A stretch of 64,000 nt of DNA. Origin: Methanobacteriota archaeon (GTDB lineage Archaea; Thermoplasmatota; Thermoplasmata; RBG-16-68-12; JAFNFQ01). The notes under the pieces are model-generated. The model worked only from the letters and a program-made list of their open reading frames with translations. It made no database searches and had not been told where the DNA came from. How positions within the stretch are numbered: the first letter of the stretch is position 1; each line of letters opens with the position of its first letter. Location of the stretch: the NCBI GenBank assembly GCA_017885655.1, contig JAFNFQ010000004.1:89373-153372 (forward strand), read 5' to 3'. A program made the translations under genes and the position numbers. This document shows, one piece after another, positions 47,922-63,306 of this stretch.

Positions 47922-48119
47922 AATTCAGAAGCTTTAACAGTTAATTAATTTTCTATTGACATTATTGAATAACGAGCTGCATCTATAAGTACATTCCTTC
48001 CAAAGCTAGCTGCTGCGAAAATGAAAGACCTTGAACGATTCTTTCGAAATCGGGCAAGGGAATCGCAGGCGCGGGATTCCTCAGCCTGAATCGCGCGGGT
48101 CGTTCCGGATCTTGATGTC

Positions 48120-48199
48120 TCACTCCGACTTCGCTCTCAGGATGACTGTGGCGATCCCGTCCAGGCACAGCGGCGACAGCTGCCCCTCCGAGCCCTCGC
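48120..48199. repeat. Copy d of the repeated gene-3' segment (shortest Y-type copy, about 80 bp)
   Basis: GTCCAGGCACAGCGGCGACAGCTGCCCCTCCGAGCCCTCG is shared with copies c and e. Minus-strand reading ...GSEGQLSPLCLDGIATVILRAKSE*. Confidence 0.6.
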
Positions 48200-48345
48200 G
48201 GAGGCGTAATTCTCCTGCGGCACTCCGGGCGGAACCGCACACGGGATTTACTCTGACGGAATTCTCCTATCCTAGGCCGATTGCGTTATGAAAGTACACA
48301 GAATCATTATGGCCGCGAATGCGTTGCCATTCGCGTGGATGAGAC

Positions 48346-48861
48346 ATGACTGCAGAGCGCACGATGCTGTTCATGGACGGATCGAATCTTTTCCACTCCA
48401 CCAAGGACTTCGACCCTGGATTGAAAATCGATCTCGTGAAACTTCGAGATTTCTTGGCGAAAGACAGGCTCCTGATACGCGCATACTACTATGGCTCGAT
48501 ACCGATTGGGAATCCGGAGAGAATCGCGAAACAGACCGCCTTTCATCACTTGCTCGAGTACAGCGGTTTCAAGACGGTGATTTTGCCGCTGCGCAGGCGA
48601 GGGGCGGAGTACGTGGAGAAAGGTGTCGACGTCTCCCTTGTTACCGACATGTTGGCGCTTGGGTTCGATCGAGCTTACGAGTGCGGCATTCTCGTGGCTG
48701 GCGATGCCGACTATGTCAGGGCGATTCAAGAGGTAGAACGCAAGGGCATCAGGATTCACGTCGCATTCTACGATCTCCCCTTATGTGCGGGCGACCTGAG
48801 ACGGGCTGCACATTCGTTCGTCTCGCTGGATAAGCATCTTGAGGAATTCAGGAAGTCGTGA
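48346..48861 (+). CDS. NYN-domain (LabA-like) protein, paralog 1
   Basis: MLFMDGSNLF ... YYYGS ... EKGVDVSLVTDML ... LVAGDADYVRAIQEV, matching the NYN/LabA core. The likely true start is the ATG at 48364. Confidence 0.8.
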   Translation: MTAERTMLFMDGSNLFHSTKDFDPGLKIDLVKLRDFLAKDRLLIRAYYYGSIPIGNPERIAKQTAFHHLLEYSGFKTVILPLRRRGAEYVEKGVDVSLVTDMLALGFDRAYECGILVAGDADYVRAIQEVERKGIRIHVAFYDLPLCAGDLRRAAHSFVSLDKHLEEFRKS

Positions 48862-48879
48862 AATCAAAAATGCATTGAG

Positions 48880-48975
48880 GAAGCTTTTTTGCCAGACGAC
48901 CGAGCCAAATGATGTGCGCTTGTCGTTATGGTTTTTGGCGGTCGTCTGGAGAGTTATTTTCGCATTCTTAATTCA
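48880..48975. repeat. Conserved hairpin element (copy 1) just downstream of NYN paralog 1
   Basis: TTTTTT-GCCAGACGACCG-(loop with CTTGTCGT)-CGGTCGTCTGG-AGAGTTATTTTC. Resembles 60420-60515 in the arms, the loop motif and the T-rich flanks. Confidence 0.55.
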
Positions 48976-49087
48976 CGTGCTTGCTTAAAACTCTTTCGCT
49001 TGGAGTCAGCCTCTTGATAGCCTGATCTGGCAAGCGTCCGTGTGAGCGATTGATGGATATTTCCAAGAAGGTTCCACGCGCAAAAGC

Positions 49088-49492
49088 CTAGATGGACGAT
49101 TCGAAGTTTGCGCGGAGTATCGCGGTCGCAACACCGTCCAGGCACAGCGGCGACAGCCTCCCCTCCGAGCCCTCGTGGACGCACGTCGCCCTCAGGTCGC
49201 ATTCGGGGCAGAACCGCACGCGGATCTCGCTCTCATCCAGCCCCAGGAGGCCCGCCTGGTCGAACATGTCGTGGAGGAGCTTCAGGTACTTGCCCTCGGC
49301 TATGCGCGGCACGTCGTACTTCGCCGCCTTCAGTCCCCCGCGCGCGGTCCAGTACTCGTAGAGGCGCCGCGCGCCCTTGGAGCTGTTGCACAAGGGGCCG
49401 ACCCGGAAGGCATTCCTCCCGCCACTAGTCAATAAATGGCGATTGCATTCCGTGCAGCTTCGCCACGAATTCTTCAGTCTTCTTAAAGTCAC
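49088..49492 (-). CDS. Hypothetical small Cys-pair protein (134 aa if GTG at 49492); the full-length gene whose 3' end recurs in copies a-d
   Basis: SCTECNRH ... FCPECDLRATCVHEG Cys pairs. 3' region 49088-49284 is the repeat unit. The GTG start overlaps the upstream RNase-III-like gene by 68 nt, so the true start may be an internal TTG/GTG/ATG. Confidence 0.5.
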   Translation of the reverse strand: MTLRRLKNSWRSCTECNRHLLTSGGRNAFRVGPLCNSSKGARRLYEYWTARGGLKAAKYDVPRIAEGKYLKLLHDMFDQAGLLGLDESEIRVRFCPECDLRATCVHEGSEGRLSPLCLDGVATAILRANFESSI

Positions 49493-49937
49493 GATCAGTA
49501 TCTAAGTAAACGGCTCCTATGAGCGCCTCTAGCGTCTCGGCCGGAATTCTCGGTTGCACATCGAGGCTCTTATCTCTCTCCGACCCTCCCAGCCGAATGA
49601 GACCTCCGACTCCTTTTTCCAGTGCGAGTTTTGCTAACGTCGGTTTCTCTTCCATCTTTCTCCTTTCCACGGTAATTTTGTCCCCTGTCTCGAAGCCGGA
49701 GTGATATAGGATATCGGTTAGTGCCGCTTTGAGCAAAGCATCGCCCAAGGTCGCGAGCGCTGTCTGATCCTCACATTTCGGTTGCTGCAACGCCCGATCC
49801 TCGACAAACTTCTGACGGGTCAATGCACGGATGAGAATATCTGTGTTTCCGAATCGATGGCCGAGAATTCCTTCCTCTTCGTTCGCTTTGATGATCTTGT
49901 CCATTGGGTCTTCGAGTTTCAAGCAATCACCTCGCAC
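49425..49937 (-). CDS. RNase III-domain-like protein (170 aa, single catalytic-domain type)
   Basis: LATLGDALLKAALTDILY and ETLEALIGAVYLD resemble the RNase III signature (ERLEFLGDA ... EALIGAIYLD). Confidence 0.55.
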   Translation of the reverse strand: MRGDCLKLEDPMDKIIKANEEEGILGHRFGNTDILIRALTRQKFVEDRALQQPKCEDQTALATLGDALLKAALTDILYHSGFETGDKITVERRKMEEKPTLAKLALEKGVGGLIRLGGSERDKSLDVQPRIPAETLEALIGAVYLDTDRDFKKTEEFVAKLHGMQSPFID

Positions 49938-50150
49938 ATATGTCTGTTCATGCTAATCCTGTCGTGTTCCATTGCTATTCCCCTCGCCGACATGCAAATG
50001 CATGGGGTCCTATTTCAAAGATGGCTTGCGCATGATGGTGACATCCCGCCCACCGCTAGATCGTCCTGCTGAGTTAAGTGTCAATTTGAGAATGTCAATC
50101 GCGACCTTTATCAAACTCTATATACGCGACACTCACATTCGGTTAATCGA

Positions 50151-50633
50151 TTGCGCATGGCAGGAGTTACGTGCCTGACCTTGTCGGGGGACAACTACTG
50201 GGCGGTCGTCAACAGCGTCTGGTCTCTTCTGTATGAGGGGCTTTCAGTCCCTAGCCACCTCATTCTCATAACTAACGGCCGCCACAAAGATGTCGCGAAG
50301 AGGGCTTCCGATTCGTTGCAGACACTGCTTTCCTTCTATGGGATGACCAGCGTCCCCGAAATCATCGTCGTCCCCGAATATGACCTGCGCCAGGTACACG
50401 ACAAGCTGTTTGAAATCATGCAGAAGGCCAAGTCGGAGGGAGAAGTCGCTCTCAATATCACTCCGGCTAGAAAGTCGCTTGCCACAGTCGCCATGGTCGC
50501 CGCATGGGAAACTAAGGTGAATAGAATCCATTACGTTTACCTCAGAAGTCTCAAGGACGCCGATTGTCCCTATCCCCTCATAGCAAGGGATCTCCATGAA
50601 TTGCTCGACTTGAAGGAGCTCCGCCCGAAATGA
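50151..50633 (+). CDS. CARF-like Rossmann-fold sensor domain protein (degenerate ligand-site motif)
   Basis: VTCLTLSGD ... HLILITNG ... VALNITPARKSLATVAMVAAWE ... IHYVYL parallels the Csa3-like protein in this window (VHIATVGE ... LHINITGGTNIMASAALIAG ... VYYI), but with NITPA in place of NITGG. TATA CTATATAC at 50118-50125; likely ATG at 50157. Confidence 0.45.
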   Translation: MRMAGVTCLTLSGDNYWAVVNSVWSLLYEGLSVPSHLILITNGRHKDVAKRASDSLQTLLSFYGMTSVPEIIVVPEYDLRQVHDKLFEIMQKAKSEGEVALNITPARKSLATVAMVAAWETKVNRIHYVYLRSLKDADCPYPLIARDLHELLDLKELRPK

Positions 50634-51718
50634 GCACATGGTGCGCGCCCAGCAGATTCCTGATGGCGCTGGTCAACAGGATTTTTGGATATGGACGCGG
50701 GGTAATCACAATCAGATATCCACTCTATGGCACGGAGCTCTTCTCATTCGATTCATCATTCAAAGTCAAGAGCGCCTCATCCAAGCACAAGTTTTACGAA
50801 GCGCGAAAGGCTGCAACCTCATGGAGCAAGGAGCTGAGTCACGAAGCGCCCGAGTGGAACCAAGTGATGGACTCGTTCGTATCCTCTGGGACATTGAAGC
50901 CTCAGAACCTCGCCGATTTCGCTGTATGGGCCAGGAAGACACTGGAGGATAGGAGACGTCCGGAATTGGCAGCTCGCCCATTCTTCCTGGCAATCGATAC
51001 GAATGTAGCTTACAATCGCCTGTTCACGCGGCATTTTCCAATCGATGGCCCAAGCGGCGTCGTTAGAGCTCCAGATTTCAGATTCCTGTTATGCGATGTT
51101 GTCCGTCGAGAAGTCGACGAACAGATTAAACGAAAATATCGCGGGGAACTGAACCAAATATTCACCCATCCTGAACAGGAATCGATTCTCAAGGAAATCG
51201 GAGGACGCAATGTCCTCGTGGCGCGAAGGGCCAAGCTCGCTCAGAATGAAATCGACTACCTTGACAAAACGCTCAACGCCTTGACTGTTCCTTGCACGGA
51301 GTTCCCCTCAGACAAGGAAGATCGAGATATTCTCATCGCAAAGACCTACGGAGCATTCAGCCGGGACAGAAACGTGGACATAGCGCTGCTGACGATGGAC
51401 CAGAACATGGTGGACCACGCGAAGAATGCTCAGATTATGTCCTTCTCGTTAAGGGTCCCTGGAGCTTCGGAACTGGAGAAGGTCGAACTGCACTACTCCC
51501 TGTGGCATCTGCTCCACGATCTGGCCGTTGCGCTAGGCGTGATTGACATAGAGCCCTTCGGGACGCGGGTGTACGGCGAGTGGGCCGGAAAAACCACGTC
51601 TGACTACGGCGCAGAGAGAGTGAAGATAGTTCTCGACGACAAAGCTCCAATAGCGAATGAAGTGGTCAGGGACTTCCGGATTTGCGCGAAAGTCTTGGGA
51701 GTGTCAATTAGCGGCTGA
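50630..51718 (+). CDS. PIN-domain nuclease with N- and C-terminal extensions
   Basis: ATGA overlap with the CARF-like gene. PIN core PFFLAIDTNVAYN ... DVVRREVDEQ ... LLTMDQNMVDHA. Confidence 0.65.
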   Translation: MSTWCAPSRFLMALVNRIFGYGRGVITIRYPLYGTELFSFDSSFKVKSASSKHKFYEARKAATSWSKELSHEAPEWNQVMDSFVSSGTLKPQNLADFAVWARKTLEDRRRPELAARPFFLAIDTNVAYNRLFTRHFPIDGPSGVVRAPDFRFLLCDVVRREVDEQIKRKYRGELNQIFTHPEQESILKEIGGRNVLVARRAKLAQNEIDYLDKTLNALTVPCTEFPSDKEDRDILIAKTYGAFSRDRNVDIALLTMDQNMVDHAKNAQIMSFSLRVPGASELEKVELHYSLWHLLHDLAVALGVIDIEPFGTRVYGEWAGKTTSDYGAERVKIVLDDKAPIANEVVRDFRICAKVLGVSISG

Positions 51719-53230
51719 CGGTTTGCCATCGTGGGATTCAGCGACTATGTCGGCGCCTAGATCCTTCGCTCTCTGTGTGACACGTTTAGCATCATCAGGT
51801 GACTTGGCCAGGATGTATTTCTTCCCTTTGTGTTGGAATAGATCTACATCTTCTTCTGACTTCAACCTCTGGGCACCCTTTGGAAGAGTCGGAGGGAGCA
51901 CTGTCCAACGGTACACGATCTCGTGGGGCAATGATTGCACCTCCCCCTCATCGGGAATAGGGAATTCCTTGGGCTCGGTCTCCGCCATCGAGTCCAACGA
52001 TTTCGCTTGAATTGTGCCAAGGTCTTTCTCGATTGTCCCTCCTACGATTGCCGGCGACAGTCCCCTGCCGTCCCAGAGGAGGCATTCGCCGGTAACCTGG
52101 CCGCGGGGCAGGTTCTCCGTCAGCCTGAAGTGGAATGTCTTGGGCCATGACTCCATCAGGGTTCGAAGACTCTCGCACTGGGCGGGGGTGAGTTGGACAC
52201 CGGTCTCGAACCCGGTATCTAATCCGCGTGATTCTACATTGGCCGTCATCACGATGCCACGCATCTTGCCGCTCATCTTGCCTAACATGGCTTTCGCGTG
52301 CAGGTACCTGTGAGCATATACATCCGCGCCTCCGCGCATCAGATTCACGGCAGCCTCCATGTTCTTGACGCGGGGTCGCATGAAAATGTGCGTTCTCAGC
52401 CCACCCTTGACCCTCTTCAGCAGGTTTTGTGTGACTTCGTGTTTCATATCGAGATTATAGATTGACATCCAGAAATCATCCTGTGCACTCTCCACGAAGT
52501 CCAACAGAGATTGCCTGAGGGTTTGCATGTTCTGCGTCGTCACGGGCAGGTCAGACGGCAACACGGACTTTATCTCCATCCTACCGGACTTGCTGACCGG
52601 TTCTAGGCGTCCAGCTCGGAACAGCTCGTGTTCGCTCTCCTGCCAGAATCCGATTCTGAACTGTTCGAAAAGCGCTTTCGCAAGATCACCTTTCAAGGGG
52701 ATAACCACCTCAACGTTCCGTGTCAAGGCTTCTGTGGCAAGATTTGCGGTGGAAAGGAAGGCTGCCGTCTTGCCAGGACTCCGCGGATCGACGATCACAA
52801 ATTTCGAATGGAAGTGCCCTGCTGTGCGGACCAATACTCTGCCCGCCAATGCGTCCAATGTCGCCTTATGCTCCTCAACCTGCCTCTTAGCGAATTCCGA
52901 TTCCTGAGAAAGGTCTTTGAGCAGATGTTGCTCCGACATCGTCAGCACGTAACAGCGCACACCTCTTTTCGACGCCTCCAGGAGCGCGTTGCCGATATTC
53001 TGATCGTAGAACAGGAAAGAGCAAAGGCATACCGTTTCCATAGAAGAGCGTATGGCTTCGACGATCATCGAACGGGCGAACCCAGTTTCCTCGGTGGGCC
53101 ATATGGTGGCGTCGCGCCTCGGCGGCACTGCGGGCGATCCCATCTGAGGCGCCAAAGGAATCCATGCAATCCCTAGAGGATTTTCCCTGAAAGGCTTGAT
53201 CATCTTCTTCTCTAGCGCCCAAGTGCTCAT
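51704..53230 (-). CDS. Phospholipase-D-family nuclease (two HKD motifs), MkoB-like
   Basis: HFHSKFVIVD and HAKAMLGK HxK motifs. ATG at 53230 gives an ATGA overlap with the upstream gene; the track ORF from 53278 would overlap it by 52 nt. Confidence 0.8.
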   Translation of the reverse strand: MSTWALEKKMIKPFRENPLGIAWIPLAPQMGSPAVPPRRDATIWPTEETGFARSMIVEAIRSSMETVCLCSFLFYDQNIGNALLEASKRGVRCYVLTMSEQHLLKDLSQESEFAKRQVEEHKATLDALAGRVLVRTAGHFHSKFVIVDPRSPGKTAAFLSTANLATEALTRNVEVVIPLKGDLAKALFEQFRIGFWQESEHELFRAGRLEPVSKSGRMEIKSVLPSDLPVTTQNMQTLRQSLLDFVESAQDDFWMSIYNLDMKHEVTQNLLKRVKGGLRTHIFMRPRVKNMEAAVNLMRGGADVYAHRYLHAKAMLGKMSGKMRGIVMTANVESRGLDTGFETGVQLTPAQCESLRTLMESWPKTFHFRLTENLPRGQVTGECLLWDGRGLSPAIVGGTIEKDLGTIQAKSLDSMAETEPKEFPIPDEGEVQSLPHEIVYRWTVLPPTLPKGAQRLKSEEDVDLFQHKGKKYILAKSPDDAKRVTQRAKDLGADIVAESHDGKPSAAN

Positions 53231-54357
53231 CGAACCGCCTCCTGCTTCCCCAGGTCGGTTGGTGCCCGCAAGTACCAATATGCCGCTGGCAATAAATCAC
53301 CACGAAGGATTGCGCCATGCCGAATCTGATCGGCCATCTTATCATGTTCAGGCAATGTGATATCGAAATCTGGGAATCTGTCGGTGACACCGCGGACTAG
53401 TTTAGGATAGCTGTTTTCATCAAGGTATTCGGTGATTTCATGCTCGAGAACCCACTCCCCCCATTCTTGTGCGTCTTTGACCGTTCGCGGGGCAATTGGC
53501 ACGTCACGGATTTCTGTTTCATCAAACGTGCCGTATTCACTCACGGTCGGCCTATCTAACTTCAGTTGCCTCGACATCGACGTCTTCTCTGCATCCGACA
53601 CCTCATTGAAGCCGCATCGCAAGACCCCTCTTCGAGCATCCCATGCCTGGCGAGTGTCGCCCAACAACTCAAGGAAAATGCTTTCGTGGGAAACCTTGGG
53701 CGACTCCATATCCCACTTTGCGAAACCTTCTGCCATGAGCTCAGATTCTCTATCAGGGTGGATGATCCATTTCAGCGAAAGCCTCTCATTCTGTTCCACC
53801 TGCGAACGTACGCATCGTTCAGCGACTGACATGATGCGGATTCGCTCCCCTAATCGTGGAAGCATGATTGACTGGTCTTTCAATTCGACAAGCCATGGCG
53901 GCACCTGCTCGACCTCCTCAGATTGTTTGCCTTTCGATTCGAGCCTCCTCGCCGCCCTGCGCGCGTTCACGATGTCCTCCACCATGGGCTCGTGCGTGCC
54001 TTCCAAATCCAGGATTCGCTGAGGAACCAACGGGTCGGTCGTGCAAAGAATTCTATAACGTCCATGCTCTGGCAATGGCACAGTTTTTCGCTCAAGCGAT
54101 TCTCTCCCTAAAGGCGTGAGACTTCCATAATCGTCAAGTAGCCCGAGATCTCGGCAGCGCGAAATTACCGTATGGCCAACGGCTATCGGTCGATCAATGA
54201 GGAGGGAATTGCAGATGTCCTCTGCTCTGATTTGTCCTCCGAGTTCTTCCGCTCGCATCAGAACGGAGATGACATCCTTGCGCCTCTCCTCCCTCCCGAC
54301 TTCCATAACAACTTCATACGCGGTCATTGACACATTTCGACTAAGGATGATCTTCAT
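53227..54357 (-). CDS. Hypothetical protein (376 aa) embedded between the helicase and PLD genes
   Basis: 4-nt overlaps on both sides indicate co-translation within the operon. No recognisable motif; the N-terminus is possibly wHTH-like. Confidence 0.6.
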   Translation of the reverse strand: MKIILSRNVSMTAYEVVMEVGREERRKDVISVLMRAEELGGQIRAEDICNSLLIDRPIAVGHTVISRCRDLGLLDDYGSLTPLGRESLERKTVPLPEHGRYRILCTTDPLVPQRILDLEGTHEPMVEDIVNARRAARRLESKGKQSEEVEQVPPWLVELKDQSIMLPRLGERIRIMSVAERCVRSQVEQNERLSLKWIIHPDRESELMAEGFAKWDMESPKVSHESIFLELLGDTRQAWDARRGVLRCGFNEVSDAEKTSMSRQLKLDRPTVSEYGTFDETEIRDVPIAPRTVKDAQEWGEWVLEHEITEYLDENSYPKLVRGVTDRFPDFDITLPEHDKMADQIRHGAILRGDLLPAAYWYLRAPTDLGKQEAVR

Positions 54358-57002
54358 CTTGTGTTCGACCTCCCTTCTTTTGAACTGTATGAGAAGGCTA
54401 TTGGTATCTGGGTCCCGAGCCGCCGCAACAAATCAGATTTCCACTGGCGGGCGAAGCCCCTGCAATTCCCCACTAGGACCAATTGGAATCGCCCTCTCGT
54501 TATCGCGACGTTCAATCTATGAGGACTGTCGAGGAATCCAATGCTTTTTCTTCCGAGTGGATCCCGAACAAAGGATAAAAGCACGAAATCTGCCTCGTGC
54601 CCTTGGAATCGGTCAACAGATCCAAGAGAGACGCGGACCCTGCCATCGCCGGTCTTGAAATGCTGCCTGTTCCAAGACTTGAACAAGCTACGCAATCGTC
54701 GTCTCAGCTCGCTTTCTTGGGCGAGATAGAATGTCAGCACGGCAACATCCCACGGCAATATAGTGCCGTTCTTCTTCTTCGGATTGCTAGTCGCCCACGA
54801 AAGGAAGGTCTGGAGCTCATCCATTATAATGTCGGCCTCGGCAAAATTGCGGTTGGCGTTCGGATCTTCATTCGCTAGAACATGAATCCAAACGGATCGG
54901 GCGCCGTATCTTCCGATATTCAGAGACCGCTGTGAAGCAATGTTTGGTGGGTCTCTGAGGCTTTGGCCTTCGTAGATATTCTCACGCGGGAACCGGGAGA
55001 TATCAGGATGCATTCGATGCTGATACGTCAAGACCGCGTGTCGCTTGCTCAGAACTTCCGTGGGCAGCCCGTGGGTGATTGCCGTTGGCTCATACTTCAT
55101 CTGCTCCCTTTCGAATCCGACTTGAAGCATTTCCAGGATAGAAGGCAGTGCTACGCGCTTGATTGAATTGACTTCATATGAAATACGATTCATTTCTTTT
55201 TCATCGAGCCACTTTGGCAGGAGCGCGTCGACATCTGCGGCGTACCGTTTCGCCTCTTCAGGCCGACGGCGGAGTTCAAACTGACGAATGAGGCGCCATC
55301 CGATTTCCGAAGCCCACGTTTTCTCCTCGCGTTCCATCTGTTCCTCATTGTCGGCCTCCTCGGGATGACGCACTCGCCAGTACGCCATTCTTCGCTCGAG
55401 GCGTGACGTGATAACCGTCTCGGAGAGAACTTGAACATTCAGAGGCAATAAACGACCGATGACGGTCAAATCCTTCGTGTCAGCGACCATCAGGTCGGCC
55501 CAAAGTGGCCCCAGGTCTCCACTATCGATCGTCTGCGGCGACAATTGTACCGTAGGTATGCCCAGCGCTTCCGCTTGTTTTACTGCCCATTCCCTGACCT
55601 TCGGGTCGGGGTCGCAAAGGAGAAAGCTGCGTTTCTCGCCCTTCTTGCGACGCGCCCGCACGAAGGCCTTGAACACTGGTAGTATCGCGCGGCTTTCCCT
55701 CTCGTCCAGGATGCCCGCAAGATTGGCCTCGACCTCGACATTGTTCACGAAGGGTGATAGCTGATTGACATCTCCAACGAGGACCCATTTCTTCGCATAG
55801 AGTGCTGGAACCAAGAACTCCTGGAATGGGGTCTTGCTCGCCTCATCAACAATCAGTGTGTCAAACTCCGGGAACGCCGGCCGCACGAGACCCACCGCTA
55901 TGTCAGGATGTTTGAGAATGCCTATGGTGGTCCCGCATACGAGATTCGCAGAATCCAGGATCAATCGCTGAAGAACCTTTTCGCCATCTTCTTCCAAAGC
56001 TTTCAGCAGGTAGTCCTGTGCGGGGGTCCTCCGCGCAATGCCTTTGAGTTTCTTCTTGAGTTCGTTCCTCTCAGTCTCGAGCCGGTTCTTGAGCAGAAGA
56101 TGAGAGACTTGCTCGGAAACGTCGAAATCCCTCGAGGCAATTCGCACCGCGACGACGGACCTTTCCATCCACCCCAGATCTACAAGCTTCTCCAAGACAT
56201 TGTCAACCGCCACATGCGTGGATGCGCAAAGAAGGACTCGATGTCCCAGCTCGATTTCTTGAAGAATCAACTCGCAGATGGTGACGGTTTTTCCGCTGCC
56301 GGGGGGCCCTTCAAGAATCGCGAAATCCGGGGTGCCAAGGGCTTTCTCCACAAAGTCACGTTGTTCATCGACTCCCGCAAAGTCGTCATCGACCAGTATT
56401 CTCCAGTTAATGGGGGAGACAGCCGCAACTGGTTCCCATCGAACATTGTTGTAGCCTTCGGCCAATGAAATCAAAGGCCTGTGAGCAGGGTGAGGACTCT
56501 GCCGAATATTCTCCAGGGCCATTAGCTCGCGATAGAGGTTCCATGTATTGGGGTGAATGTAGACTTTCTCTGCAGCTGGCAATCGGGACACACAGATCGC
56601 GTCAATTTCGGGCTCCCTGTCAAGCACCTCAATATCGCCGCGTCCTGCCTTTGCTTTATCGGAAATGAAATCCGCATCGAAGAACTCATCGAACACTTCT
56701 TCGGGAGTCTCAGCGTCGATTTCTCTCAGACGAATCCAAAATCCCATCGCACTCGTTTTTCGTTGTGCCGGTTGGTGAATGTTTTGTTCGGAGGGCATCG
56801 ATCCATTGGCGGTTCGATTTCGGATAATCTCTGGGTCAATAGGTCCCTCCCAGGCGAGCATCAATGCCTGCGCTTCAATCCTGTACTTTGCGCTGCTAAG
56901 ATACTTGTAGAACGGTCGGTAGTTGTTGTAGGTTCTTTCCAAGAGAACCTGAATGTCTGTGTTAGGAACTCTTGGCATATTAGCAAAGTGCAGGTTCAGC
57001 AT
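54354..57002 (-). CDS. Superfamily-1 Upf1/DNA2-like helicase (COG1112-type, MkoA-like) with about 230-aa N-terminal domain
   Basis: Walker A GPPGSGKTV, Walker B LIVDEASKT, motif VI VAITRGRFQLVLVG. Confidence 0.85.
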   Translation of the reverse strand: MLNLHFANMPRVPNTDIQVLLERTYNNYRPFYKYLSSAKYRIEAQALMLAWEGPIDPEIIRNRTANGSMPSEQNIHQPAQRKTSAMGFWIRLREIDAETPEEVFDEFFDADFISDKAKAGRGDIEVLDREPEIDAICVSRLPAAEKVYIHPNTWNLYRELMALENIRQSPHPAHRPLISLAEGYNNVRWEPVAAVSPINWRILVDDDFAGVDEQRDFVEKALGTPDFAILEGPPGSGKTVTICELILQEIELGHRVLLCASTHVAVDNVLEKLVDLGWMERSVVAVRIASRDFDVSEQVSHLLLKNRLETERNELKKKLKGIARRTPAQDYLLKALEEDGEKVLQRLILDSANLVCGTTIGILKHPDIAVGLVRPAFPEFDTLIVDEASKTPFQEFLVPALYAKKWVLVGDVNQLSPFVNNVEVEANLAGILDERESRAILPVFKAFVRARRKKGEKRSFLLCDPDPKVREWAVKQAEALGIPTVQLSPQTIDSGDLGPLWADLMVADTKDLTVIGRLLPLNVQVLSETVITSRLERRMAYWRVRHPEEADNEEQMEREEKTWASEIGWRLIRQFELRRRPEEAKRYAADVDALLPKWLDEKEMNRISYEVNSIKRVALPSILEMLQVGFEREQMKYEPTAITHGLPTEVLSKRHAVLTYQHRMHPDISRFPRENIYEGQSLRDPPNIASQRSLNIGRYGARSVWIHVLANEDPNANRNFAEADIIMDELQTFLSWATSNPKKKNGTILPWDVAVLTFYLAQESELRRRLRSLFKSWNRQHFKTGDGRVRVSLGSVDRFQGHEADFVLLSFVRDPLGRKSIGFLDSPHRLNVAITRGRFQLVLVGNCRGFARQWKSDLLRRLGTQIPIAFSYSSKEGRSNTR

Positions 57003-57901
57003 CCAATTTCCCTTCCCCTTTCCCTCAACACTCCGAAGATCTCCTTGTCATCAGCGATGACCTTCCCCCCGGGACGCCATTGGTAATGGCCGCCTCGAAC
57101 AAGAAACTTTCGCCTATCCCATCCCGCTCTCTGAATAGCATCTTGCACTCCGACCTCGAGAATCGACGGTCCGAACCCATAACTGCCACCCGTATTCTGG
57201 AAGAATCGACCGAGTGGGTCCATCATGAGGTATGAGTCTGTCATGGCCCGATTATCCTCTTTGACTGGATTGAGGCATTCATGGCGAGCGACGAAGGCTT
57301 CGAACTGCCCATTCATAGTGGCCAAGTCTGCGAAGCTGTCATCGTTCTCTCCTTTTATTGGGAGCATTTGAAAGACCTTCCACCGCCGAGGTTTCAGTTC
57401 GGCAACGAAGGATCGCATGTCTTCTCCCCAATTCATTGAGGTGACAACAGTGTTGACTTTGAATCGTATGCCGAATTCATGAATCCGCTTTGCCACTTCG
57501 CGAACAAGTGCGACATGATTTCCATCACCCCGCCCGAGAGCTTTTTCCACTTGCTCTGATGCGCTGTCAACGCTCAGAGCGATCCAGTCGACTAGGTCTG
57601 CAATCGTGCTGAGATAGGTCTTATTCAGCCGCGTCCCGTTCGATATGATCATCGTTGTCAGGCCAGCTTCTTTTGAAGCCTGAAGTACCTCTCGGAGGTG
57701 GGAACACAATGTCGGCTCCCCTCCCGCCAAGGTCAACTTTTCCGTCCCCGCTTTGCGGAGAATCTCCGGAATCTTCACCGCCTGATTCATCGAAAGCGGG
57801 GTACAGATTCCCTTGAAATGGGCGAAGCAGAATCTGCAGCGATAGTTGCACCATGGCCATATATGCCAATTCACCGAAACCGGTTCCACGCCCCCATTCA
57901 T
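56996..57901 (-). CDS. Prokaryotic viperin (pVip) radical-SAM enzyme
   Basis: Residue-level correspondence with animal viperin: PVSVNWHIWPWCNYRCRFCF vs [20 protein letters not shown]; AGGEP vs SGGEPF; ISNGTRL vs VSNGSLI; FKVNTVV vs FKINSVI; RWKVFQMLPIKGEN vs RWKVFQCLLIEGEN; MTDSYLMMD vs MKDSYLILD; ILEVGVQDAIQRAGWDRRKFLVRGGHYQW vs [29 protein letters not shown]. Confidence 0.9.
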   Translation of the reverse strand: MNGGVEPVSVNWHIWPWCNYRCRFCFAHFKGICTPLSMNQAVKIPEILRKAGTEKLTLAGGEPTLCSHLREVLQASKEAGLTTMIISNGTRLNKTYLSTIADLVDWIALSVDSASEQVEKALGRGDGNHVALVREVAKRIHEFGIRFKVNTVVTSMNWGEDMRSFVAELKPRRWKVFQMLPIKGENDDSFADLATMNGQFEAFVARHECLNPVKEDNRAMTDSYLMMDPLGRFFQNTGGSYGFGPSILEVGVQDAIQRAGWDRRKFLVRGGHYQWRPGGKVIADDKEIFGVLRERGREIGC

Positions 57902-57946
57902 CTAGATTGTCAGGTATTGCAGACACCTATAGCGGTTCTCTTTTAT

Positions 57947-57967
57947 AGTAAAATGCTGCATTTTACT
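57947..57967. promoter_or_regulatory. Perfect 10-bp inverted repeat (AGTAAAATGC-T-GCATTTTACT) in the pVip/csa3 divergent promoter; candidate Csa3 operator
   Basis: Lies between the TTTTATAG TATA-like box (57941-57948) and the csa3-like ATG (57973), i.e. over the expected leaderless transcription start. Confidence 0.4.
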
Positions 57968-57972
57968 GACGG

Positions 57973-58617
57973 ATGTGCGCAGTCCATATAGCCACGGTCG
58001 GCGAAACGCCCGAGCCAATCATAGAAGGCGTCAGACACCACAGCGTCGATTTGCAGGTGCTCCTGCATAGTCGCGAGACAAAGAGTGTTGCCGTCGAAAT
58101 TCGCAGGAGGATTAAGAGCCTTATTGGCAGAGACATCTGTGAGCTGAAGGAGATCGATCCGTTCGACATGCGCGACATCATGACTGCCATCGTCTCATAT
58201 CGAAAAAGGATGCCCGCGGAGGTGCTCCACATCAACATAACGGGCGGAACCAACATCATGGCATCTGCGGCCCTGATAGCGGGATTCGTGGTCGGGGCAC
58301 GCGTTTACTATATCCGGAAGGATCCAAACCCGAAGATACCGCTCGCTGATCGTATCATCGAGCTTCCGGTTCCCCGCGTTTCTCTTGAGAGCCTCGACGA
58401 GAATCATCGCAGGATTCTGAAATTGATACATAATCGAGGAACGGAGTTCGCTCCGGCCAACAGCGTGATTGCGACCGAATTGGGGATGTCGCGGCAGCTC
58501 GTGAGCTACCACCTCAGGAGGCTCGAGAGGGCGGGCTTATTGCACCTGACACTTGAAGGTCGAAACAAGATCGCGAGTCTGACGCCCGAAGGAGACCTCT
58601 ACGCTGAGATTGTTTGA
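57973..58617 (+). CDS. csa3: Csa3-like transcriptional regulator (CARF domain + winged HTH)
   Basis: CARF motifs VHIATVGETPEP and LHINITGGTNIMASAALIAGFVVGARVYYI; C-terminal wHTH RILKLIHNRG ... IATELGMSRQLVSYHLRRLERAGLL. Confidence 0.8.
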   Translation: MCAVHIATVGETPEPIIEGVRHHSVDLQVLLHSRETKSVAVEIRRRIKSLIGRDICELKEIDPFDMRDIMTAIVSYRKRMPAEVLHINITGGTNIMASAALIAGFVVGARVYYIRKDPNPKIPLADRIIELPVPRVSLESLDENHRRILKLIHNRGTEFAPANSVIATELGMSRQLVSYHLRRLERAGLLHLTLEGRNKIASLTPEGDLYAEIV

Positions 58618-59255
58618 TCCAGAATGCGCCCCATAACCGAAGCCGAATCACAAGGACGCGATGGCAAGATTCTTGTCCACCCATTAACATGGCGCACCAA
58701 CGAGGCCGTCATATGACCAAGAATCCGGCGAAAATGAGGGAGGACTTCAAGCCCGATAGGATACGATTTCTGATGGTCGGAGAATCACCGCCCAGGAAAG
58801 GGTTCTTTTATGATCCTGAAAGCTCATTGAAGTCGTTGTCTCGCGGTACCGCTGAAGTCTTTGAGGAAGTATATGGTGAGGACTATGGCAAAGGAGAAGA
58901 CCAGAAGCTCCTGTTCCTCAATAGCTTCCAATCTAAAGGGTTCTATCTTCACGATTTCTACGCTGTGAGAGGCAAGAAAGTAAGAAGAAGACGTTGGGAC
59001 GATATATACGAAGGAATCGACGAGCTCAGGTCATTGCTGGAAGTCAGTAAGGCCGACATTGGACGTGTCGTGACGGTGTGGCCCGAGATCTCGGACATCG
59101 TGGATGAAGCTTTGTGGAAGGAGGAGATTAAGGCACTGCACAGGATCGTCCCATTCCCCTCCAATGTGAGCATGAAGGTCTACAAGTGGAGGATCTCGGA
59201 GATCGTGAAGGAGTTCGAAGGTCGTCCGCGTTCGCATTCTCGCAACGATCGATGA
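58614..59255 (+). CDS. Hypothetical protein, ATGA-coupled to csa3 (alternative ATG at 58713); possible uracil-DNA-glycosylase-superfamily fold
   Basis: FLMVGESPP and IVPFPSNVS loosely resemble UDG motif A (GE.PG) and motif B (HPSP.N). Weak assignment. Confidence 0.4.
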   Translation: MIQNAPHNRSRITRTRWQDSCPPINMAHQRGRHMTKNPAKMREDFKPDRIRFLMVGESPPRKGFFYDPESSLKSLSRGTAEVFEEVYGEDYGKGEDQKLLFLNSFQSKGFYLHDFYAVRGKKVRRRRWDDIYEGIDELRSLLEVSKADIGRVVTVWPEISDIVDEALWKEEIKALHRIVPFPSNVSMKVYKWRISEIVKEFEGRPRSHSRNDR

Positions 59256-59423
59256 CGGAGTGACTGAGGCAAAATCCGCGATTTCTGCATGATCATCTCC
59301 TTCCCCCTGATGCGGATACGCCCGGATAGGACTTGACTTCATCGCAAGAAATACCGTCGAACTGTCTCCAACCACGTTGATGTTCCTCCATTTCCACACA
59401 TCAATGTAGGAGGTGTGATTCGA

Positions 59424-59585
59424 TTGAAGCCTATCAACGTAGACGACAAGAACGTGTGGTTCGAGCGCGGGGTGAGGTGCCTGGAGAGACACGAGTACGG
59501 TCAGGCGGTGGACCGCTTCAAGAGGGCGCGCGTGCCGCTCCCATGGGAGGTGCTGAGGAGAAGGAGCGGGAAGATGAAGTACTAA
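59424..59585 (+). CDS. Possible small ORF (53 aa, TTG start) upstream of NYN paralog 2
   Basis: GGAGGTG 9 nt upstream of the TTG. Product KPINVDDKNVWFERGVRCLERHEYGQAVDRFKRARVPLPWEVLRRRSGKMKY. Speculative. Confidence 0.2.
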   Translation: MKPINVDDKNVWFERGVRCLERHEYGQAVDRFKRARVPLPWEVLRRRSGKMKY

Positions 59586-59635
59586 GCTGGAGGCTCTGAT
59601 GCGAATGGTGAATATCATCAAGGGATAATCGGCCC

Positions 59636-60199
59636 ATGCAACATTCGATGCCTGAGAGATTGATGATTTTCATCGATGGTTCAAATCTCTTTCACACCGG
59701 TCGACTGTACGGGAAGCATTACCGAATCGAGGACCTATGCAACGAACTGTCCGCGGACAGACAACTCGTCCGGACCTACTACTATGGTTCCATTCCCACT
59801 GGCGGAGACGACGACAAGGTGGAGAAGCAGAAAGGATTCCATATGAGGCTGGAATATGGGGGAATCAATGTCAGCATCATTCCGCTGAAGACACGGGAGG
59901 TCAATTTTAAATGTCCAAAGTGTGGGGCAAAATCGGCTTTCAGCCGCAATGTCGAGAAGGGGGTGGACGTCGCGCTCGTCACTGACATGCTTGCTTTCGG
60001 TTTCCGCGATGGCTACGATGTGGCCTTGCTGGTCGCGGGCGACCTGGATTACATCAGAGCGATTGAGGAAGTGAAGAGGATACCAAAAAGGGTCGAGATA
60101 GCATTCTTCGAGAGCATCCAGGCGATCAGCGGCGCACTGAAGAGGAAAGCGGATCGCTTCATTCCTCTGGAACCGATAATCAACAAGATCGGCACCTAG
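59636..60199 (+). CDS. NYN-domain protein, paralog 2, with an inserted CPKCG zinc-ribbon
   Basis: MIFIDGSNLF ... YYYGS ... KCPKCG ... EKGVDVALVTDML ... LVAGDLDYIRAIEEV. Confidence 0.8.
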   Translation: MQHSMPERLMIFIDGSNLFHTGRLYGKHYRIEDLCNELSADRQLVRTYYYGSIPTGGDDDKVEKQKGFHMRLEYGGINVSIIPLKTREVNFKCPKCGAKSAFSRNVEKGVDVALVTDMLAFGFRDGYDVALLVAGDLDYIRAIEEVKRIPKRVEIAFFESIQAISGALKRKADRFIPLEPIINKIGT

Positions 60200-60419
60200 T
60201 GTTTAGACGTAGTTATTTCACCAGGTCGCCGAGGAGATACCGAAAGCGTCTCCCCGCCAGGGCATGTTGGTTCCGCCGACCTGTTAAGTTGTTTCACCAC
60301 CCTTATGACTCCCGCGTATCTTAAGCTTTTTCCTGGGGCTATCTCGAAGGGGCAGTACATGATTCTCGAATAGGCATCGTTGGCGGCGATGACACGGTCC
60401 GTGATCTGTTGACTTGGTA

Positions 60420-60515
60420 AAGGTTTTTTACCAGACGACCGACAAGCCATCCCCGCGAACACTTGTCGTCAAGGCATTAGCCGTCGTCTGGAGAGCTATT
60501 TTCAGACACCTCATT
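60420..60515. repeat. Conserved hairpin element (copy 2) downstream of NYN paralog 2
   Basis: TTTTTT-ACCAGACGACCG-(loop with CTTGTCGT)-CCGTCGTCTGG-AGAGCTATTTTC. See 48880-48975. Confidence 0.55.
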
Positions 60516-60677
60516 CGTTTCGGACTTTGAAGCCTTTATGCTTCAATTCATCAAGGTGCGCCGCACACGATGTCGCGAACCGAATTGAGTACACGGTCGG
60601 AGGAATCCCTGATGTCTTTCTCCGTGATGTTCAAGCGAGATCGCATCCGCATTTCTTTCCGCGCGAACGGGTTGGAC

Positions 60678-61187: not shown

Positions 61188-61316
61188 TCCCGCCAGAGAG
61201 TGCGAATATCCTTTCGATCATTCCGCCCGAGACTCCCATGGGTTCTGGACAAGTCCAGTGATGTCTCAGACGGATGGGCGATAGCATTTTAGCGAGGCAT
61301 GCCATTCATTATTTAA

Positions 61317-61664: not shown

Positions 61665-61754
61665 CTCGCAACGGATTTCGCTTGAATATTGCCCCGGATA
61701 TTATTCGGTCGGGTTTAGATCAGTCAGCTGTGTTCAGATTCCTTAGAAGGGGCT

Positions 61755-62501: not shown

Positions 62502-62661
62502 GATGCTGAATATGAAATGGCGACATATAGCCGGTACTGGAATTTCGTTCTAGTTCCACGACGCGGAAATCATCATACGTGAACTGATGTTCTCCTGAAT
62601 CGTATTTTCGTTCGTTGCCAACCCTAGTATCTCTTCATGCCTCTATGTCTCGGTGTAAAAA

Positions 62662-63294: not shown

Positions 63295-63306
63295 GGGGGA
63301 AATATC

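What the first reader, a model, noticed from the sequence alone, without database searches (positions are those of the whole stretch)
51704..57002. Mokosh-type-I-like helicase plus PLD nuclease pair with an extra embedded gene
The Upf1/DNA2-like SF1 helicase (motifs GPPGSGKTV, LIVDEAS, VAITRGR) and the two-HKD PLD nuclease (HSKFVIVD, HAKAML) match the MkoA/MkoB pairing. The interposed 376-aa ORF with ATGA overlaps on both sides is not part of the described system.
Basis: partly seen in the sequence, partly recalled or inferred. Interest (0 to 1): 0.75.

Follow-up and report, generated by a model that had tools for sequence, protein, structure and literature searches.

The report
Viperin-linked helicase–adaptor–PLD nuclease defence operon
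The helicase and nuclease genes are real, but the "extra" gene between them is a conserved third part of a widespread, unnamed three-gene defence-type module that here is fused into one operon with an antiviral viperin gene.

Summary
On the minus strand lie an 882-aa Upf1-like SF1 helicase (54354-57002), a 376-aa ORF (53227-54357) and a 508-aa two-HKD PLD protein (51704-53230), joined by ATGA overlaps.

The middle gene is not an insertion. It belongs to a family of about 605 clusters with no Pfam, NCBIfam or PADLOC model. In 34 further loci from archaea, bacteria and plasmids it sits between the same helicase and PLD families wherever the contig allows; the one exception is an IS21-truncated plasmid copy. 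Its AF2 model (pLDDT 95) has an N-terminal winged helix. The other roughly 280 residues match nothing solved.

A prokaryotic viperin gene (56996-57901) overlaps the helicase start by 7 nt. A divergent CARF-wHTH regulator gene follows, with a conserved palindrome and TATA box between them.

Viperin adjacency recurs in Thermoplasmata-like, Heimdall-, Hel- and Lokiarchaeal loci. CARF regulators accompany the trio in both domains: Csa3-like in archaea, RtcR-like in bacteria.

The helicase core matches MkoA best (4e-83), but it has no kinase domain, and the PLD matches MkoB poorly. DefenseFinder already labels homologous Asgard loci "Mokosh_TypeI" and skips the middle gene.

Verdict: a distinct three-gene, CARF-associated, Mokosh-like variant. 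The mechanism is inferred.

The parts
56996..57901 (-). Prokaryotic viperin (pVip), a radical-SAM enzyme of 301 aa. It is the first gene of the operon, and its stop overlaps the helicase start by 7 nt.
   Evidence: NCBIfam viperin_w_prok scores 285 bits against a cut-off of 180. PADLOC pVip hits at 2e-83. The CxxxCxxC motif is at C18/C22/C25. The overlap was read.
54354..57002 (-). Upf1-like SF1 helicase of 882 aa. It has a family-specific N-terminal domain of about 210 aa and an intact helicase core (residues 212-852).
   Evidence: Pfam AAA_11 and AAA_12. PADLOC MkoA hits at 4e-83 over profile positions 618-1081/1112. All SF1 motifs are conserved across 113 homologues. The N-terminal domain has no Pfam or PDB sequence match.
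53227..54357 (-). Middle protein ('Mid') of 376 aa. It comprises an N-terminal beta-hairpin plus winged helix (about residues 3-90), a beta-rich middle domain and a C-terminal helical bundle. It is the predicted non-enzymatic adaptor or recognition subunit.
51704..53230 (-). PLD-family nuclease of 508 aa with two HKD-type motifs in one chain (H141/K143/D148 and H311/K313) and a C-terminal extension of about 120 aa.
   Evidence: Pfam PLDc_2 at 5e-19. PADLOC DrmC at 2e-15 and MkoB at 4e-4. Motif conservation is seen in a 15-sequence alignment.
57973..58617 (+). Divergent CARF-wHTH (Csa3-like) transcription regulator of 214 aa.
   Evidence: PADLOC CARF3--CARF at 9e-49. Pfam HFX_2341_N plus HTH_20. 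Homologues flank the trio in 11 of 34 other loci.
57941..57967 (-). Putative operator, an 8-nt perfect inverted repeat (GTAAAATG-CAG-CATTTTAC), abutting a TATA-like box (TATAAAAG) that points into the pVip operon.
   Evidence: Read. The same palindrome-plus-TATA arrangement is conserved in L001, L002 and L005.
50151..51718 (+). Convergent pair forming a split CARF_m1 sensor (160 aa, 50151-50633) and a PIN-like nuclease (362 aa, 50630-51718). It is an accessory module in this clade, not part of the core trio.
   Evidence: PADLOC CARF_m1--CARF at 3e-23 for the 160-aa protein. PADLOC CARF_m1--CARF_PIN, C-terminal part, at 7e-17 for the 362-aa protein. The pair is conserved downstream of the PLD in L001, L005 and L024.

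Best explanation
The locus is a four-gene archaeal defence operon: pVip, then helicase, then Mid, then PLD. It lies in a low-GC defence island and is probably controlled by the divergently encoded CARF-wHTH regulator through a conserved palindromic operator next to the promoter.

Its core is a conserved three-gene helicase-adaptor-nuclease module found in archaea, bacteria and plasmids.

Inferred mechanism:
- The Upf1-like SF1 helicase loads on foreign single-stranded nucleic acid (RNA or ssDNA) and translocates on it using ATP.
- The middle protein has no conserved catalytic-type residues. It acts as the bridging or recognition subunit, either docking on the helicase through its winged helix or binding nucleic acid.
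- The single-chain two-HKD PLD enzyme is the nuclease effector.
- In this lineage the module is co-expressed with viperin, which makes chain-terminating ddh-nucleotides. Chemical termination of viral transcription and helicase-nuclease attack on viral nucleic acid are therefore deployed together.
- A cyclic-oligonucleotide-type signal sensed by the CARF domain probably sets expression.

What is shown: the gene content, motif integrity, strict three-gene synteny, purifying selection, recurrent CARF and viperin neighbourhoods, and the conserved operator.

What is inferred: complex formation, the substrate, the role of Mid, regulation by the CARF protein, and any functional coupling to viperin.
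For: Trio synteny over 34 distinct other loci carrying Mid:
- The helicase lies upstream in 24 of 25 loci with enough DNA. The exception is the IS21-truncated Klebsiella plasmid.
- The PLD lies downstream in 29 of 29.
- The loci span Thermoplasmata, Thaumarchaeota, Heimdall- and Helarchaeota, Methanolobus, Marinobacter, Minicystis, Sorangium, Sutcliffiella and Vibrio plasmids.

Family size:
- 605 Mid clusters at E<=1e-3.
- 2486 helicase relatives at E<=1e-3. The 120 listed share the ~860-aa architecture.

Integrity of the genes:
- Helicase and HKD motifs are conserved.
- dN/dS is 0.08-0.12 for all four genes.
- Translational coupling by overlapping stops and starts.

Defence context in the window:
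- SoFic at 7e-115 and a second Fic protein;
- a split CARF_m1/PIN pair;
- two NYN proteins;
- GC falling from 0.60 to 0.52.

Defence context in relatives: type I RM, TIR, HNH and cas1/cas2.

CARF regulators:
- CARF-wHTH in 11 of 34 loci.
- RtcR_PspF1 CARF-AAA-HTH directly after the PLD in gammaproteobacterial loci (4e-158 and 4.5e-209).

Other support:
- The operator and TATA box are conserved in four loci.
- pVip lies next to the trio in 7 of 34 loci, and also in a Lokiarchaeales MAG in published DefenseFinder output.
- Precedent: Upf1-like CnuH helicases are typically followed by genes encoding a wHTH fused to a nuclease, and the wHTH is modelled to dock on the helicase (PMC11090510).
Against: - There is no experimental evidence for defence, complex formation or substrate for any member of this three-gene family.
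- Most trio loci lack viperin, and viperins are known to work alone. The coupling could be island clustering plus operon compaction.
- The window has no cyclase, Cas10 or CRISPR array that could feed the CARF domains.
- Mid's winged helix resembles MarR/Csa3/DtxR-type DNA-binding regulators, so a regulatory role is not excluded.
- PLD nucleases cut DNA as well as RNA, so the target is open.
- The RtcR-like association could instead point to an RNA-damage stress response.
Confidence: 0.55

Rival explanations
1. It is simply a type I Mokosh system (MkoA plus MkoB) in which an unrelated passenger gene has been picked up between the two genes.
For: - The best PADLOC hit of the helicase is MkoA at 4e-83, and MkoB is weakly hit by the PLD.
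- DefenseFinder labels homologous Asgard loci Mokosh_TypeI.
Against: - The middle gene is present at the same position in every locus with enough DNA, across two domains of life. It is under purifying selection and translationally coupled on both sides.
- There is no STK domain, and only 42% of the MkoA profile is matched.
- The MkoB match is at 4e-4, against 2e-15 for DrmC.
- In the Asgard DefenseFinder output the profile coverages are only 0.15-0.32.
Confidence: 0.1
2. The trio is a stress-induced RNA-repair or RNA-quality-control module, analogous to RtcR-controlled RtcAB, and not an antiviral system. Viperin and the other defence genes are merely neighbours.
For: - An RtcR_PspF1 CARF-AAA-HTH gene lies directly downstream of the PLD in Marinobacter, Vibrio and Klebsiella loci.
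- Sigma-54-like -24/-12 elements lie just upstream of the helicase in L007 and L022.
- Upf1 is an RNA-surveillance helicase (established knowledge).
Against: - Distribution is patchy across domains, with carriage on plasmids and in low-GC islands.
- The neighbours are consistently defence genes: RM, TIR, SoFic, pVip, cas1/2 and CARF effectors.
- The overall count of sigma-54 matches is not above chance.
- RtcR-like regulators are themselves reported next to defence systems (PMC11090510).
Confidence: 0.15
3. The middle protein is the operon's own transcription factor, a wHTH repressor with a ligand-binding domain, and not a subunit of a helicase-nuclease machine.
Against: - It lies inside the operon between two enzymes, with overlapping stop and start codons, in all loci.
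- It has about 280 further conserved residues of unmatched fold.
- Dedicated CARF regulators are already present.
- There is precedent for a wHTH acting as the helicase-docking module in CnuE.
Confidence: 0.12
4. Viperin and the trio are two independent systems that happen to be adjacent, with no functional or regulatory coupling.
For: - 27 of 34 other trio loci have no pVip within the sequence held.
- pVips protect on their own (established knowledge; PADLOC and DefenseFinder treat them as single-gene systems).
- DefenseFinder calls them separately.
Against: - pVip lies immediately upstream and co-directional, with overlapping or near-abutting reading frames, in the window, L001, L005, L016 and L019. 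L002 has the same order but a 178-nt gap between pVip and the helicase.
- A Lokiarchaeales MAG has pVip in the gene slot adjacent to the helicase, but its strand and spacing were not examined.
- These loci cover helicase identities from 79% down to 34%.
- A single conserved promoter-operator region lies upstream of pVip.
Confidence: 0.35

Closest known systems
Mokosh type I (MkoA helicase + MkoB PLD; Millman et al. 2022)
   Same: - It pairs a Upf1-like COG1112 SF1 helicase gene with a separate PLD-family nuclease gene in defence islands.
- The helicase core is the best PADLOC match (MkoA, 4e-83).
- DefenseFinder labels homologous Asgard loci Mokosh_TypeI.
   Different: - There is no Ser/Thr-kinase domain.
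- The helicase is 882 aa against profile lengths of 1112 and 1607, and only positions 618-1081 are matched.
- The helicase has its own ~210-aa N-terminal domain.
- A conserved third gene lies between the two.
- The PLD is a single-chain two-HKD enzyme that matches MkoB only at 4e-4.
- CARF regulators, and in archaea viperin, are attached.
CnuH-CnuE modules of type II/III CoCoNuT systems and their relatives (Bell, Makarova, Koonin et al. 2024, PMC11090510)
   Same: - A Upf1-like helicase is followed in the operon by a winged-helix-containing partner and a nuclease effector.
- In type III-C the effector is two PLD domains.
- It is frequently associated with CARF (RtcR-like) regulators, and RNA targeting has been proposed.
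   Different: - The wHTH protein and the PLD are separate genes here.
- No McrB/McrC (CnuB/CnuC), Hsp70-like CnuD or TerY-P genes were found among the island genes scanned.
- Direct homology of Mid to CnuE, or of this helicase to CnuH, was not tested because no reference sequences were available in the tools.
Eukaryotic MOV10L1-PLD6/Zucchini (piRNA biogenesis) and Upf1 RNA surveillance
   Same: The logic is the same: an SF1 Upf1-family helicase feeds single-stranded RNA to, or marks it for, a PLD-family or other nuclease. The link to Mokosh was proposed by Cury et al..
   Different: This is only a resemblance at domain level. PLD6 is a single-HKD dimer on mitochondria. There is no counterpart of Mid, viperin or the CARF control.
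Prokaryotic viperins (pVip; Bernheim et al. 2021)
   Same: The first gene of the operon is a bona fide pVip by the curated equivalog model.
   Different: Known pVips are described as stand-alone genes, or as partnered with nucleotide kinases or TPR proteins (the PADLOC model names; PMC12988326). I found no description of an operonic fusion to a helicase-nuclease trio in the papers searched.
DISARM DrmC (PLD nuclease)
   Same: It gives the best profile matches for the PLD domain: PADLOC DrmC at 2e-15, and NCBIfam DISARM_DrmC_I at 56.6 bits.
   Different: - The score is below the curated cut-off of 133 bits.
- DrmC is a short single-HKD protein.
- No DrmA, DrmB or methyltransferase was found among the neighbouring genes scanned.

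Membership tests
Mokosh type I | A gene encoding a COG1112/Upf1-like SF1 helicase domain. | tested here: met
   Pfam AAA_11 and AAA_12. PADLOC MkoA at 4e-83 over the helicase core. All SF1 motifs are intact.
Mokosh type I | The helicase protein additionally carries a Ser/Thr-kinase domain (Millman 2022 description). | tested here: not met
   No kinase family appears in the Pfam scan at E<=0.01. The N-terminal 210 aa match nothing in Pfam or by PDB sequence. The description was read.
Mokosh type I | A near full-length match to an MkoA profile. | tested here: not met
   Only positions 618-1081 of 1112 are matched for PDLC03920, and only the C-terminal part of PDLC03921.
Mokosh type I | A separate adjacent PLD nuclease gene that is homologous to MkoB. 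| tested here: inconclusive
   A PLD gene with conserved HKD motifs is present. However, the MkoB profile is matched only at 4e-4 over 134 of 610 positions, which is weaker than DrmC at 2e-15.
Mokosh type I | A two-gene architecture. | tested here: not met
   A third, strictly co-conserved gene lies between the helicase and the PLD in every locus with enough DNA.
Mokosh type I | Called by the DefenseFinder rule, which requires MkoA and MkoB hits within the allowed spacing. | not testable with these tools
   DefenseFinder cannot be run here. Published output for Asgard MAGs calls the same arrangement Mokosh_TypeI with low profile coverage (0.15-0.32) and skips the middle gene.
Mokosh type I | Anti-phage activity that depends on the helicase ATP site and the PLD active site. 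| not testable with these tools
   This needs an experiment.
Mokosh type II (MkoC) | Helicase and PLD fused in one protein. | tested here: not met
   They are separate genes. The MkoC profile is matched only at 3.6e-20 over the C-terminal part of the helicase.
CoCoNuT type II/III | McrB-like GTPase (CnuB) and McrC-like (CnuC) genes in the operon. | tested here: not met
   The genes scanned around the trio are pVip, CARF-wHTH, CARF_m1/PIN, an RNase III-like protein, Fic and NYN. No McrB or McrC family appeared in the Pfam or PADLOC scans of these genes.
CoCoNuT type II/III | A Upf1-like helicase (CnuH) followed by CnuE, an elongated wHTH fused to a nuclease. | tested here: inconclusive
   The same three elements are present, but the wHTH protein and the PLD are separate genes. 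Sequence or fold homology to CnuH and CnuE was not tested because no reference sequences were available.
DISARM (DrmC) | DrmC equivalog score, plus DrmA/DrmB and methyltransferase neighbours. | tested here: not met
   NCBIfam DISARM_DrmC_I scores 56.6 bits against a cut-off of 133. No DrmA or DrmB appears among the neighbours scanned.
Prokaryotic viperin (pVip) | The curated viperin_w_prok equivalog model and the radical-SAM CxxxCxxC motif. | tested here: met
   285.2 bits against a cut-off of 180. C18/C22/C25 are present.
Csa3 (CARF-wHTH regulator) | The TIGR01884 cas_HTH model at its cut-off, and a CRISPR-Cas neighbourhood. | tested here: not met
   40.6 bits against a cut-off of 60.2. No cas genes were seen among the genes scanned and no CRISPR-like repeat array was found in the window. 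The protein is a member of the broader CARF3 group, with PADLOC at 9e-49.

The most novel reading that the evidence does not exclude
The operon may be a signal-inducible 'terminate and clear' antiviral machine. On a CARF-sensed cyclic-nucleotide alarm, viperin makes ddh-nucleotides that prematurely terminate viral transcripts. The Upf1-like helicase, guided by the novel-fold middle subunit, then recognises these aberrant RNAs or stalled transcription complexes and hands them to the PLD nuclease. This would be a prokaryotic counterpart of eukaryotic RNA surveillance, physically wired to viperin. The middle protein would be a new class of nucleic-acid or helicase adaptor.
Probability: 0.15. Interest if true: 0.85.

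Novelty: new variant of a known kind. Interest (0 to 1): 0.62.

Why it matters
- **Mokosh census counts are mixed.** DefenseFinder labelled two such Asgard loci "Mokosh type I" through partial profile hits. They belong to a distinct three-gene system, and its conserved third subunit has no family model, no name and no solved structural analogue beyond a winged helix.

- **A testable entry point.** Recognising the trio gives a defined way into how Upf1-like helicase/PLD systems choose their targets.

- **Signal-controlled expression.** CARF-domain transcription regulators accompany the module in both archaea (Csa3-like) and bacteria (RtcR-like).

- **A new viperin context.** Archaeal viperins are repeatedly operon-fused to a helicase-nuclease machine. 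I did not find this context described in the papers searched.

- **Eukaryotic parallels.** Viperin, Upf1-family helicases and PLD6/Zucchini all have eukaryotic immune or surveillance counterparts. An archaeal operon that joins them, found also in Asgard archaea, bears on the origin of these pathways.

Tried and rejected
**Searches that led nowhere**
- AF2 of the middle protein with only four close sequences gave pLDDT 46 and was unusable. It was replaced by an 88-sequence alignment.
- The afdb50 fold library was not available.
- Foldseek against PDB and BFVD found nothing at E<=1e-3.
- The profile of the middle family against PDB sequences gave nothing below E=0.04.
- The helicase N-terminal domain found nothing in Pfam or in PDB sequences.
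- A genome scan with the 88-sequence alignment failed because no stretch was conserved enough. It was repeated with 18 sequences.
- No relative of the middle protein was found in phage genomes.
- No CRISPR-like repeat array was found in the window, and no cas genes or Cas10 among the genes scanned.
- Scans for the sigma-54 promoter pattern in the bacterial loci were not above chance overall. Only the positions of two hits are suggestive.
- The Makarova 2020 CARF classification paper is not held.
- Searching the supplement by class name plus 'Mokosh' returned nothing.
- Literature searches for a described viperin-helicase-PLD or helicase-wHTH-PLD three-gene system found none.

**Explanations considered and rejected**
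- *Cardiolipin synthase or housekeeping PLD.* The only profile hits are nuclease-type PLDc_2, DrmC and NucT, and there are no Cls models. One GenBank record does carry the generic 'cardiolipin synthase family' name.
- *Housekeeping Upf1/IGHMBP2.* The score is 164 bits against a cut-off of 349.
- *The middle ORF is an overprinted or spurious ORF.* dN/dS is 0.10 and there are 605 family clusters.

Full report
**What is in the sequence**

On the minus strand there are four tightly packed ORFs:
- 56996-57901, 301 aa;
- 54354-57002, 882 aa;
- 53227-54357, 376 aa;
- 51704-53230, 508 aa from the ATG. The mechanical ORF list runs on to a TTG at 53278.

I read the junctions directly:
- The first ORF's stop overlaps the helicase start by 7 nt (GGATGCTGA).
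- The helicase stop and the middle start share ATGA.
- The middle stop and the PLD start share ATGA.

- GPPGSGKTV with K238, LIVDEAS with D386/E387, and VAITRGR in the helicase;
- HSKFVIVD (H141/K143/D148) and HAKAML (H311/K313) in the PLD.

The interval is too narrow, because the operon starts one gene further upstream.

**Identity of the four genes**

- **Helicase.** It carries Pfam AAA_11 and AAA_12 at 1e-32 and 1e-35.
  - Its best defence-library match is PADLOC MkoA at 4e-83. That match covers residues 212-852 against profile positions 618-1081 of 1112.
  - The NCBIfam IGHMBP2-family model scores 164 bits against a cut-off of 349.
  - No kinase domain is found.
  - The first ~210 residues are conserved within the family but match nothing in Pfam or in PDB sequences.
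  - Across 113 homologues of similar length every SF1 motif is conserved: QRxFV, GPPGSGKT, CASTHVAVDN, DEAS, VGDxxQLSP, QHRMHP, TVDRFQGHEAD and RLNVAxTRAR.
- **PLD protein.** It has PLDc_2 at 5e-19. It matches DrmC-type profiles (2e-15) better than MkoB (4e-4).
  - A 15-sequence family alignment shows both HKD-type motifs conserved, with the second Asp variable. This implies a single-chain pseudo-dimeric active site.
- **First gene.** It is a prokaryotic viperin: NCBIfam viperin_w_prok scores 285 bits against a cut-off of 180, and PADLOC pVip hits at 2e-83.
- **Middle protein.** It has no family in Pfam, NCBIfam or PADLOC. The only signal is a weak winged-helix hit at E 0.0015.

**The middle gene is a core component, not an insertion**

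A word-index search found only four close relatives. An exhaustive profile search of 1.84 billion cluster representatives found much more:
- 605 proteins at E<=1e-3 and 381 at E<=1e-10;
- nearly all of the 150 listed are 355-420 aa and aligned end to end.

I gathered loci in five ways:
- through the close relatives;
- through helicase relatives at 39-53% identity;
- by a scan of representative genomes;
- by a scan of metagenomes;
- by tblastn of plasmids.

A tblastn tally over 34 distinct loci other than the window gave the following:

| Flank | Loci with enough DNA | Loci with the expected gene |
|---|---|---|
| Helicase family immediately upstream, same strand | 25 | 24 |
| PLD family immediately downstream | 29 | 29 |

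The one exception is a Klebsiella plasmid copy cut by an IS21 element.

The hosts include:
- Thermoplasmata, Cuniculiplasma, Thaumarchaeota, Heimdall- and Helarchaeota, and Methanolobus;
- Marinobacter, Minicystis, Sorangium and Sutcliffiella;
- Vibrio plasmids.

Against the 72-79% identical locus L001, dN/dS is 0.10 for the middle gene. The figures for the helicase, pVip and PLD are 0.08, 0.12 and 0.12.

**Structure of the middle protein**

With four sequences AF2 failed, giving pLDDT 46. With an 88-sequence alignment it gave pLDDT 95.4 and pTM 0.86. The model contains:
- an N-terminal long beta-hairpin and three-helix winged helix (about residues 3-90);
- a beta-rich region (about 93-290);
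- a four-helix C-terminal bundle (293-375).

Fold searches gave little beyond the winged helix:
- Foldseek against PDB and against viral models found nothing at E<=1e-3.
- The AlphaFold-database library was unavailable.

The invariant or near-invariant positions in the 88-sequence alignment are mainly aromatic, hydrophobic or Gly/Pro: W239, W299, W361, F278, F328, G84 and P153, with R7, D108 and D368 as the charged exceptions. I infer that it is not an enzyme. That is an inference, not a test.

**Surroundings**

The region from about 48 kb to the end of the window has GC of about 0.52, against about 0.60 elsewhere. It is a defence island containing:
- SoFic (46752-47921, PADLOC 7e-115) and a second Fic protein (41718-42656);
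- an RNase III-like protein (49425-49937);
- a split CARF_m1 sensor plus PIN-like nuclease (50151-51718);
- two NYN/HEC-09-like proteins (59636-60199 and 62662-63294).

Divergent from pVip lies a CARF-wHTH gene (57973-58617, PADLOC CARF3 at 9e-49).

The 71-bp spacer holds GTAAAATG-CAG-CATTTTAC next to TATAAAAG, read towards pVip. The same palindrome-plus-TATA arrangement is conserved in three other loci whose regulator is 44-58% identical to the window's. I read this as a promoter with an operator. That reading is an inference.

The window has no CRISPR-like repeat array, and no cas genes were seen among the genes scanned.

**Recurrent partners of the trio**

- **CARF-wHTH.** Genes of this kind flank the trio in 11 of 34 other loci.
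- **RtcR-like regulator.** In gammaproteobacterial loci the gene directly after the PLD is an RtcR_PspF1-type CARF-AAA-HTH protein (PADLOC 4e-158 and 4.5e-209). The tblastn tally finds a relative in Sorangium too. CARF-domain transcription regulators therefore accompany the module in both domains.
- **Viperin.**
  - It lies immediately upstream and co-directional in the window's clade (L001, L002, L005), in L019 (helicase 47% identical) and in a Heimdallarchaeal locus (L016, helicase 34% identical). The reading frames overlap or nearly abut, except in L002, where a 178-nt gap separates them.
  - It lies nearby on the opposite strand in L020 (Helarchaeota) and L030.

**Comparison with what is known**

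*Mokosh.* Type I is described as a helicase gene that also carries a Ser/Thr-kinase domain, plus a PLD gene. Type II is a fusion of the two (Millman et al. preprint). Here the kinase domain is absent. Only 42% of the MkoA profile is matched, MkoB is matched at 4e-4, and a third conserved gene is present. Several defining features are therefore tested and not met, even though the domain logic is the same.

Published DefenseFinder output for Asgard MAGs contains this same arrangement (Leao et al. 2024, Supplementary Data 1). In a Lokiarchaeales bin, on one scaffold:
- gene_2 is Mokosh_TypeI__MkoB (491 aa, 26 bits, profile coverage 0.195);
- gene_3 is unlabelled;
- gene_4 is Mokosh_TypeI__MkoA (919 aa, 149 bits, coverage 0.32);
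- gene_5 is Viperin__pVip.

A Gefionarchaeia contig shows the same one-gene gap. At least these two such loci are therefore already counted as "Mokosh type I" through partial hits, with the middle gene ignored and viperin scored as a separate system.

*CoCoNuT.* The closest conceptual description is in the CoCoNuT study (PMC11090510).
- In type III-C those effectors are two PLD domains.
- The systems are often associated with RtcR-like CARF regulators.
- The trio differs in having the wHTH protein and the PLD as separate genes, and no McrBC homologues were found among the neighbours scanned.
- I could not test homology to CnuH or CnuE directly.

**Most likely mechanism (inferred)**

- The module is a helicase-adaptor-nuclease complex. 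The SF1 helicase translocates on foreign RNA or ssDNA, Mid bridges or targets, and the PLD cleaves.
- In this archaeal lineage the module is transcribed together with viperin from a promoter governed by the CARF-wHTH protein. It may therefore respond to a cyclic-oligonucleotide-type alarm produced elsewhere in the genome.
- Whether viperin's chain-terminated transcripts are the substrate of the helicase-nuclease is an attractive possibility but is untested.

**Rivals**

- A plain two-gene Mokosh with a passenger gene. The strict synteny contradicts this.
- An RtcR-type RNA-stress module rather than a defence system. The island and plasmid context argues against it but does not exclude it.
- Mid as a transcription factor.
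- Viperin as a mere neighbour.

**Limits**

- Nothing here is experimental.
- The loci were found through the proteins themselves. The synteny count is robust, but the frequencies of the viperin and CARF partners are from a small, non-random sample.
- The organism is not identified. The nearest named relative of the helicase, at 77% identity, is from a Thermoplasmata MAG.

Noticed in passing
window 57941-57967 (also L001, L002, L005 intergenic regions): An 8-nt perfect inverted repeat (GTAAAATG-CAG-CATTTTAC) abuts a TATA-like TATAAAAG box between the CARF-wHTH gene and pVip. The arrangement is conserved in three other loci. It is likely an operator plus promoter.
   Followed up: partly
window 50151-51718 (+); L001, L005, L024; compare L010 4209-5269, L013 2834-3941, L015 2191-3275: A split CARF_m1 sensor (160 aa) and PIN-like protein (362 aa) lie convergent with the PLD and are conserved in the closest loci. 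In L010 a weak NYN/PRORP-like ORF (186 aa) and a small CARF ORF (165 aa, PADLOC CARF3 at 8e-10) sit directly upstream of the helicase instead. L013 and L015 carry a similarly sized ORF pair at the same position; only the L015 183-aa ORF gave a weak NYN hit in Pfam, and their second ORFs were not scanned against PADLOC.
   Followed up: partly
L007 13223-14659; L022 5926-7371; L023 8944-10389: In Marinobacter, a Vibrio plasmid and a Klebsiella plasmid, an RtcR_PspF1-type CARF-AAA-HTH (sigma-54 activator-like) gene directly follows the PLD. Sigma-54-like -24/-12 elements lie 40-75 nt upstream of the helicase start in L007 (7926-7941) and L022 (492-507). The overall match counts are not above chance.
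   Followed up: partly
L018 9771-10898 (Sutcliffiella tianshenii): The PLD homologue in this Bacillaceae locus has lost both HKD motifs (AISGNIFLFDP and VVGNDIVLVD), while the helicase and the middle gene are retained. It may be an inactivated or re-purposed variant.
   Followed up: no
L023 (Klebsiella pneumoniae plasmid pE16KP0218-1) 5173-7327: An IS21-family transposase has truncated the trio. Only the last ~110 codons of the middle gene, the PLD and the RtcR-like gene remain. GenBank names the PLD a 'cardiolipin synthase family protein'.
   Followed up: no
window 46752-47921 (-) and 41718-42656 (-): There are two Fic-domain proteins. The first is a strong SoFic match (PADLOC 7e-115). The second matches SoFic and PDC-S04 more weakly.
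   Followed up: no
window 49425-49937 (-); L019 6667-7182: A small RNase III-like protein lies just beyond the trio in the window. A 33%-identical one lies directly downstream of the PLD in L019. It may be another recurrent accessory gene.
   Followed up: no
window 59636-60199 (+) and 62662-63294 (+): Two NYN-domain proteins match the PADLOC candidate HEC-09 (3e-16 and 8e-10). They lie beyond the CARF-wHTH gene.
   Followed up: no
window 35000-40000 and 48000-64000: There are sharp compositional shifts. GC is 0.64-0.69 around a 960-aa ORF (35929-38811) with no Pfam match, and GC is about 0.52 across the defence island, against about 0.60 elsewhere.
   Followed up: no
window 19038-26636 (+) and 17314-18942 (+): A 2532-aa ORF was not examined. 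Upstream of it is a HerA-like ATPase (Pfam DUF87; PADLOC HerA 8.5e-51), which could be housekeeping HerA or part of another system.
   Followed up: no
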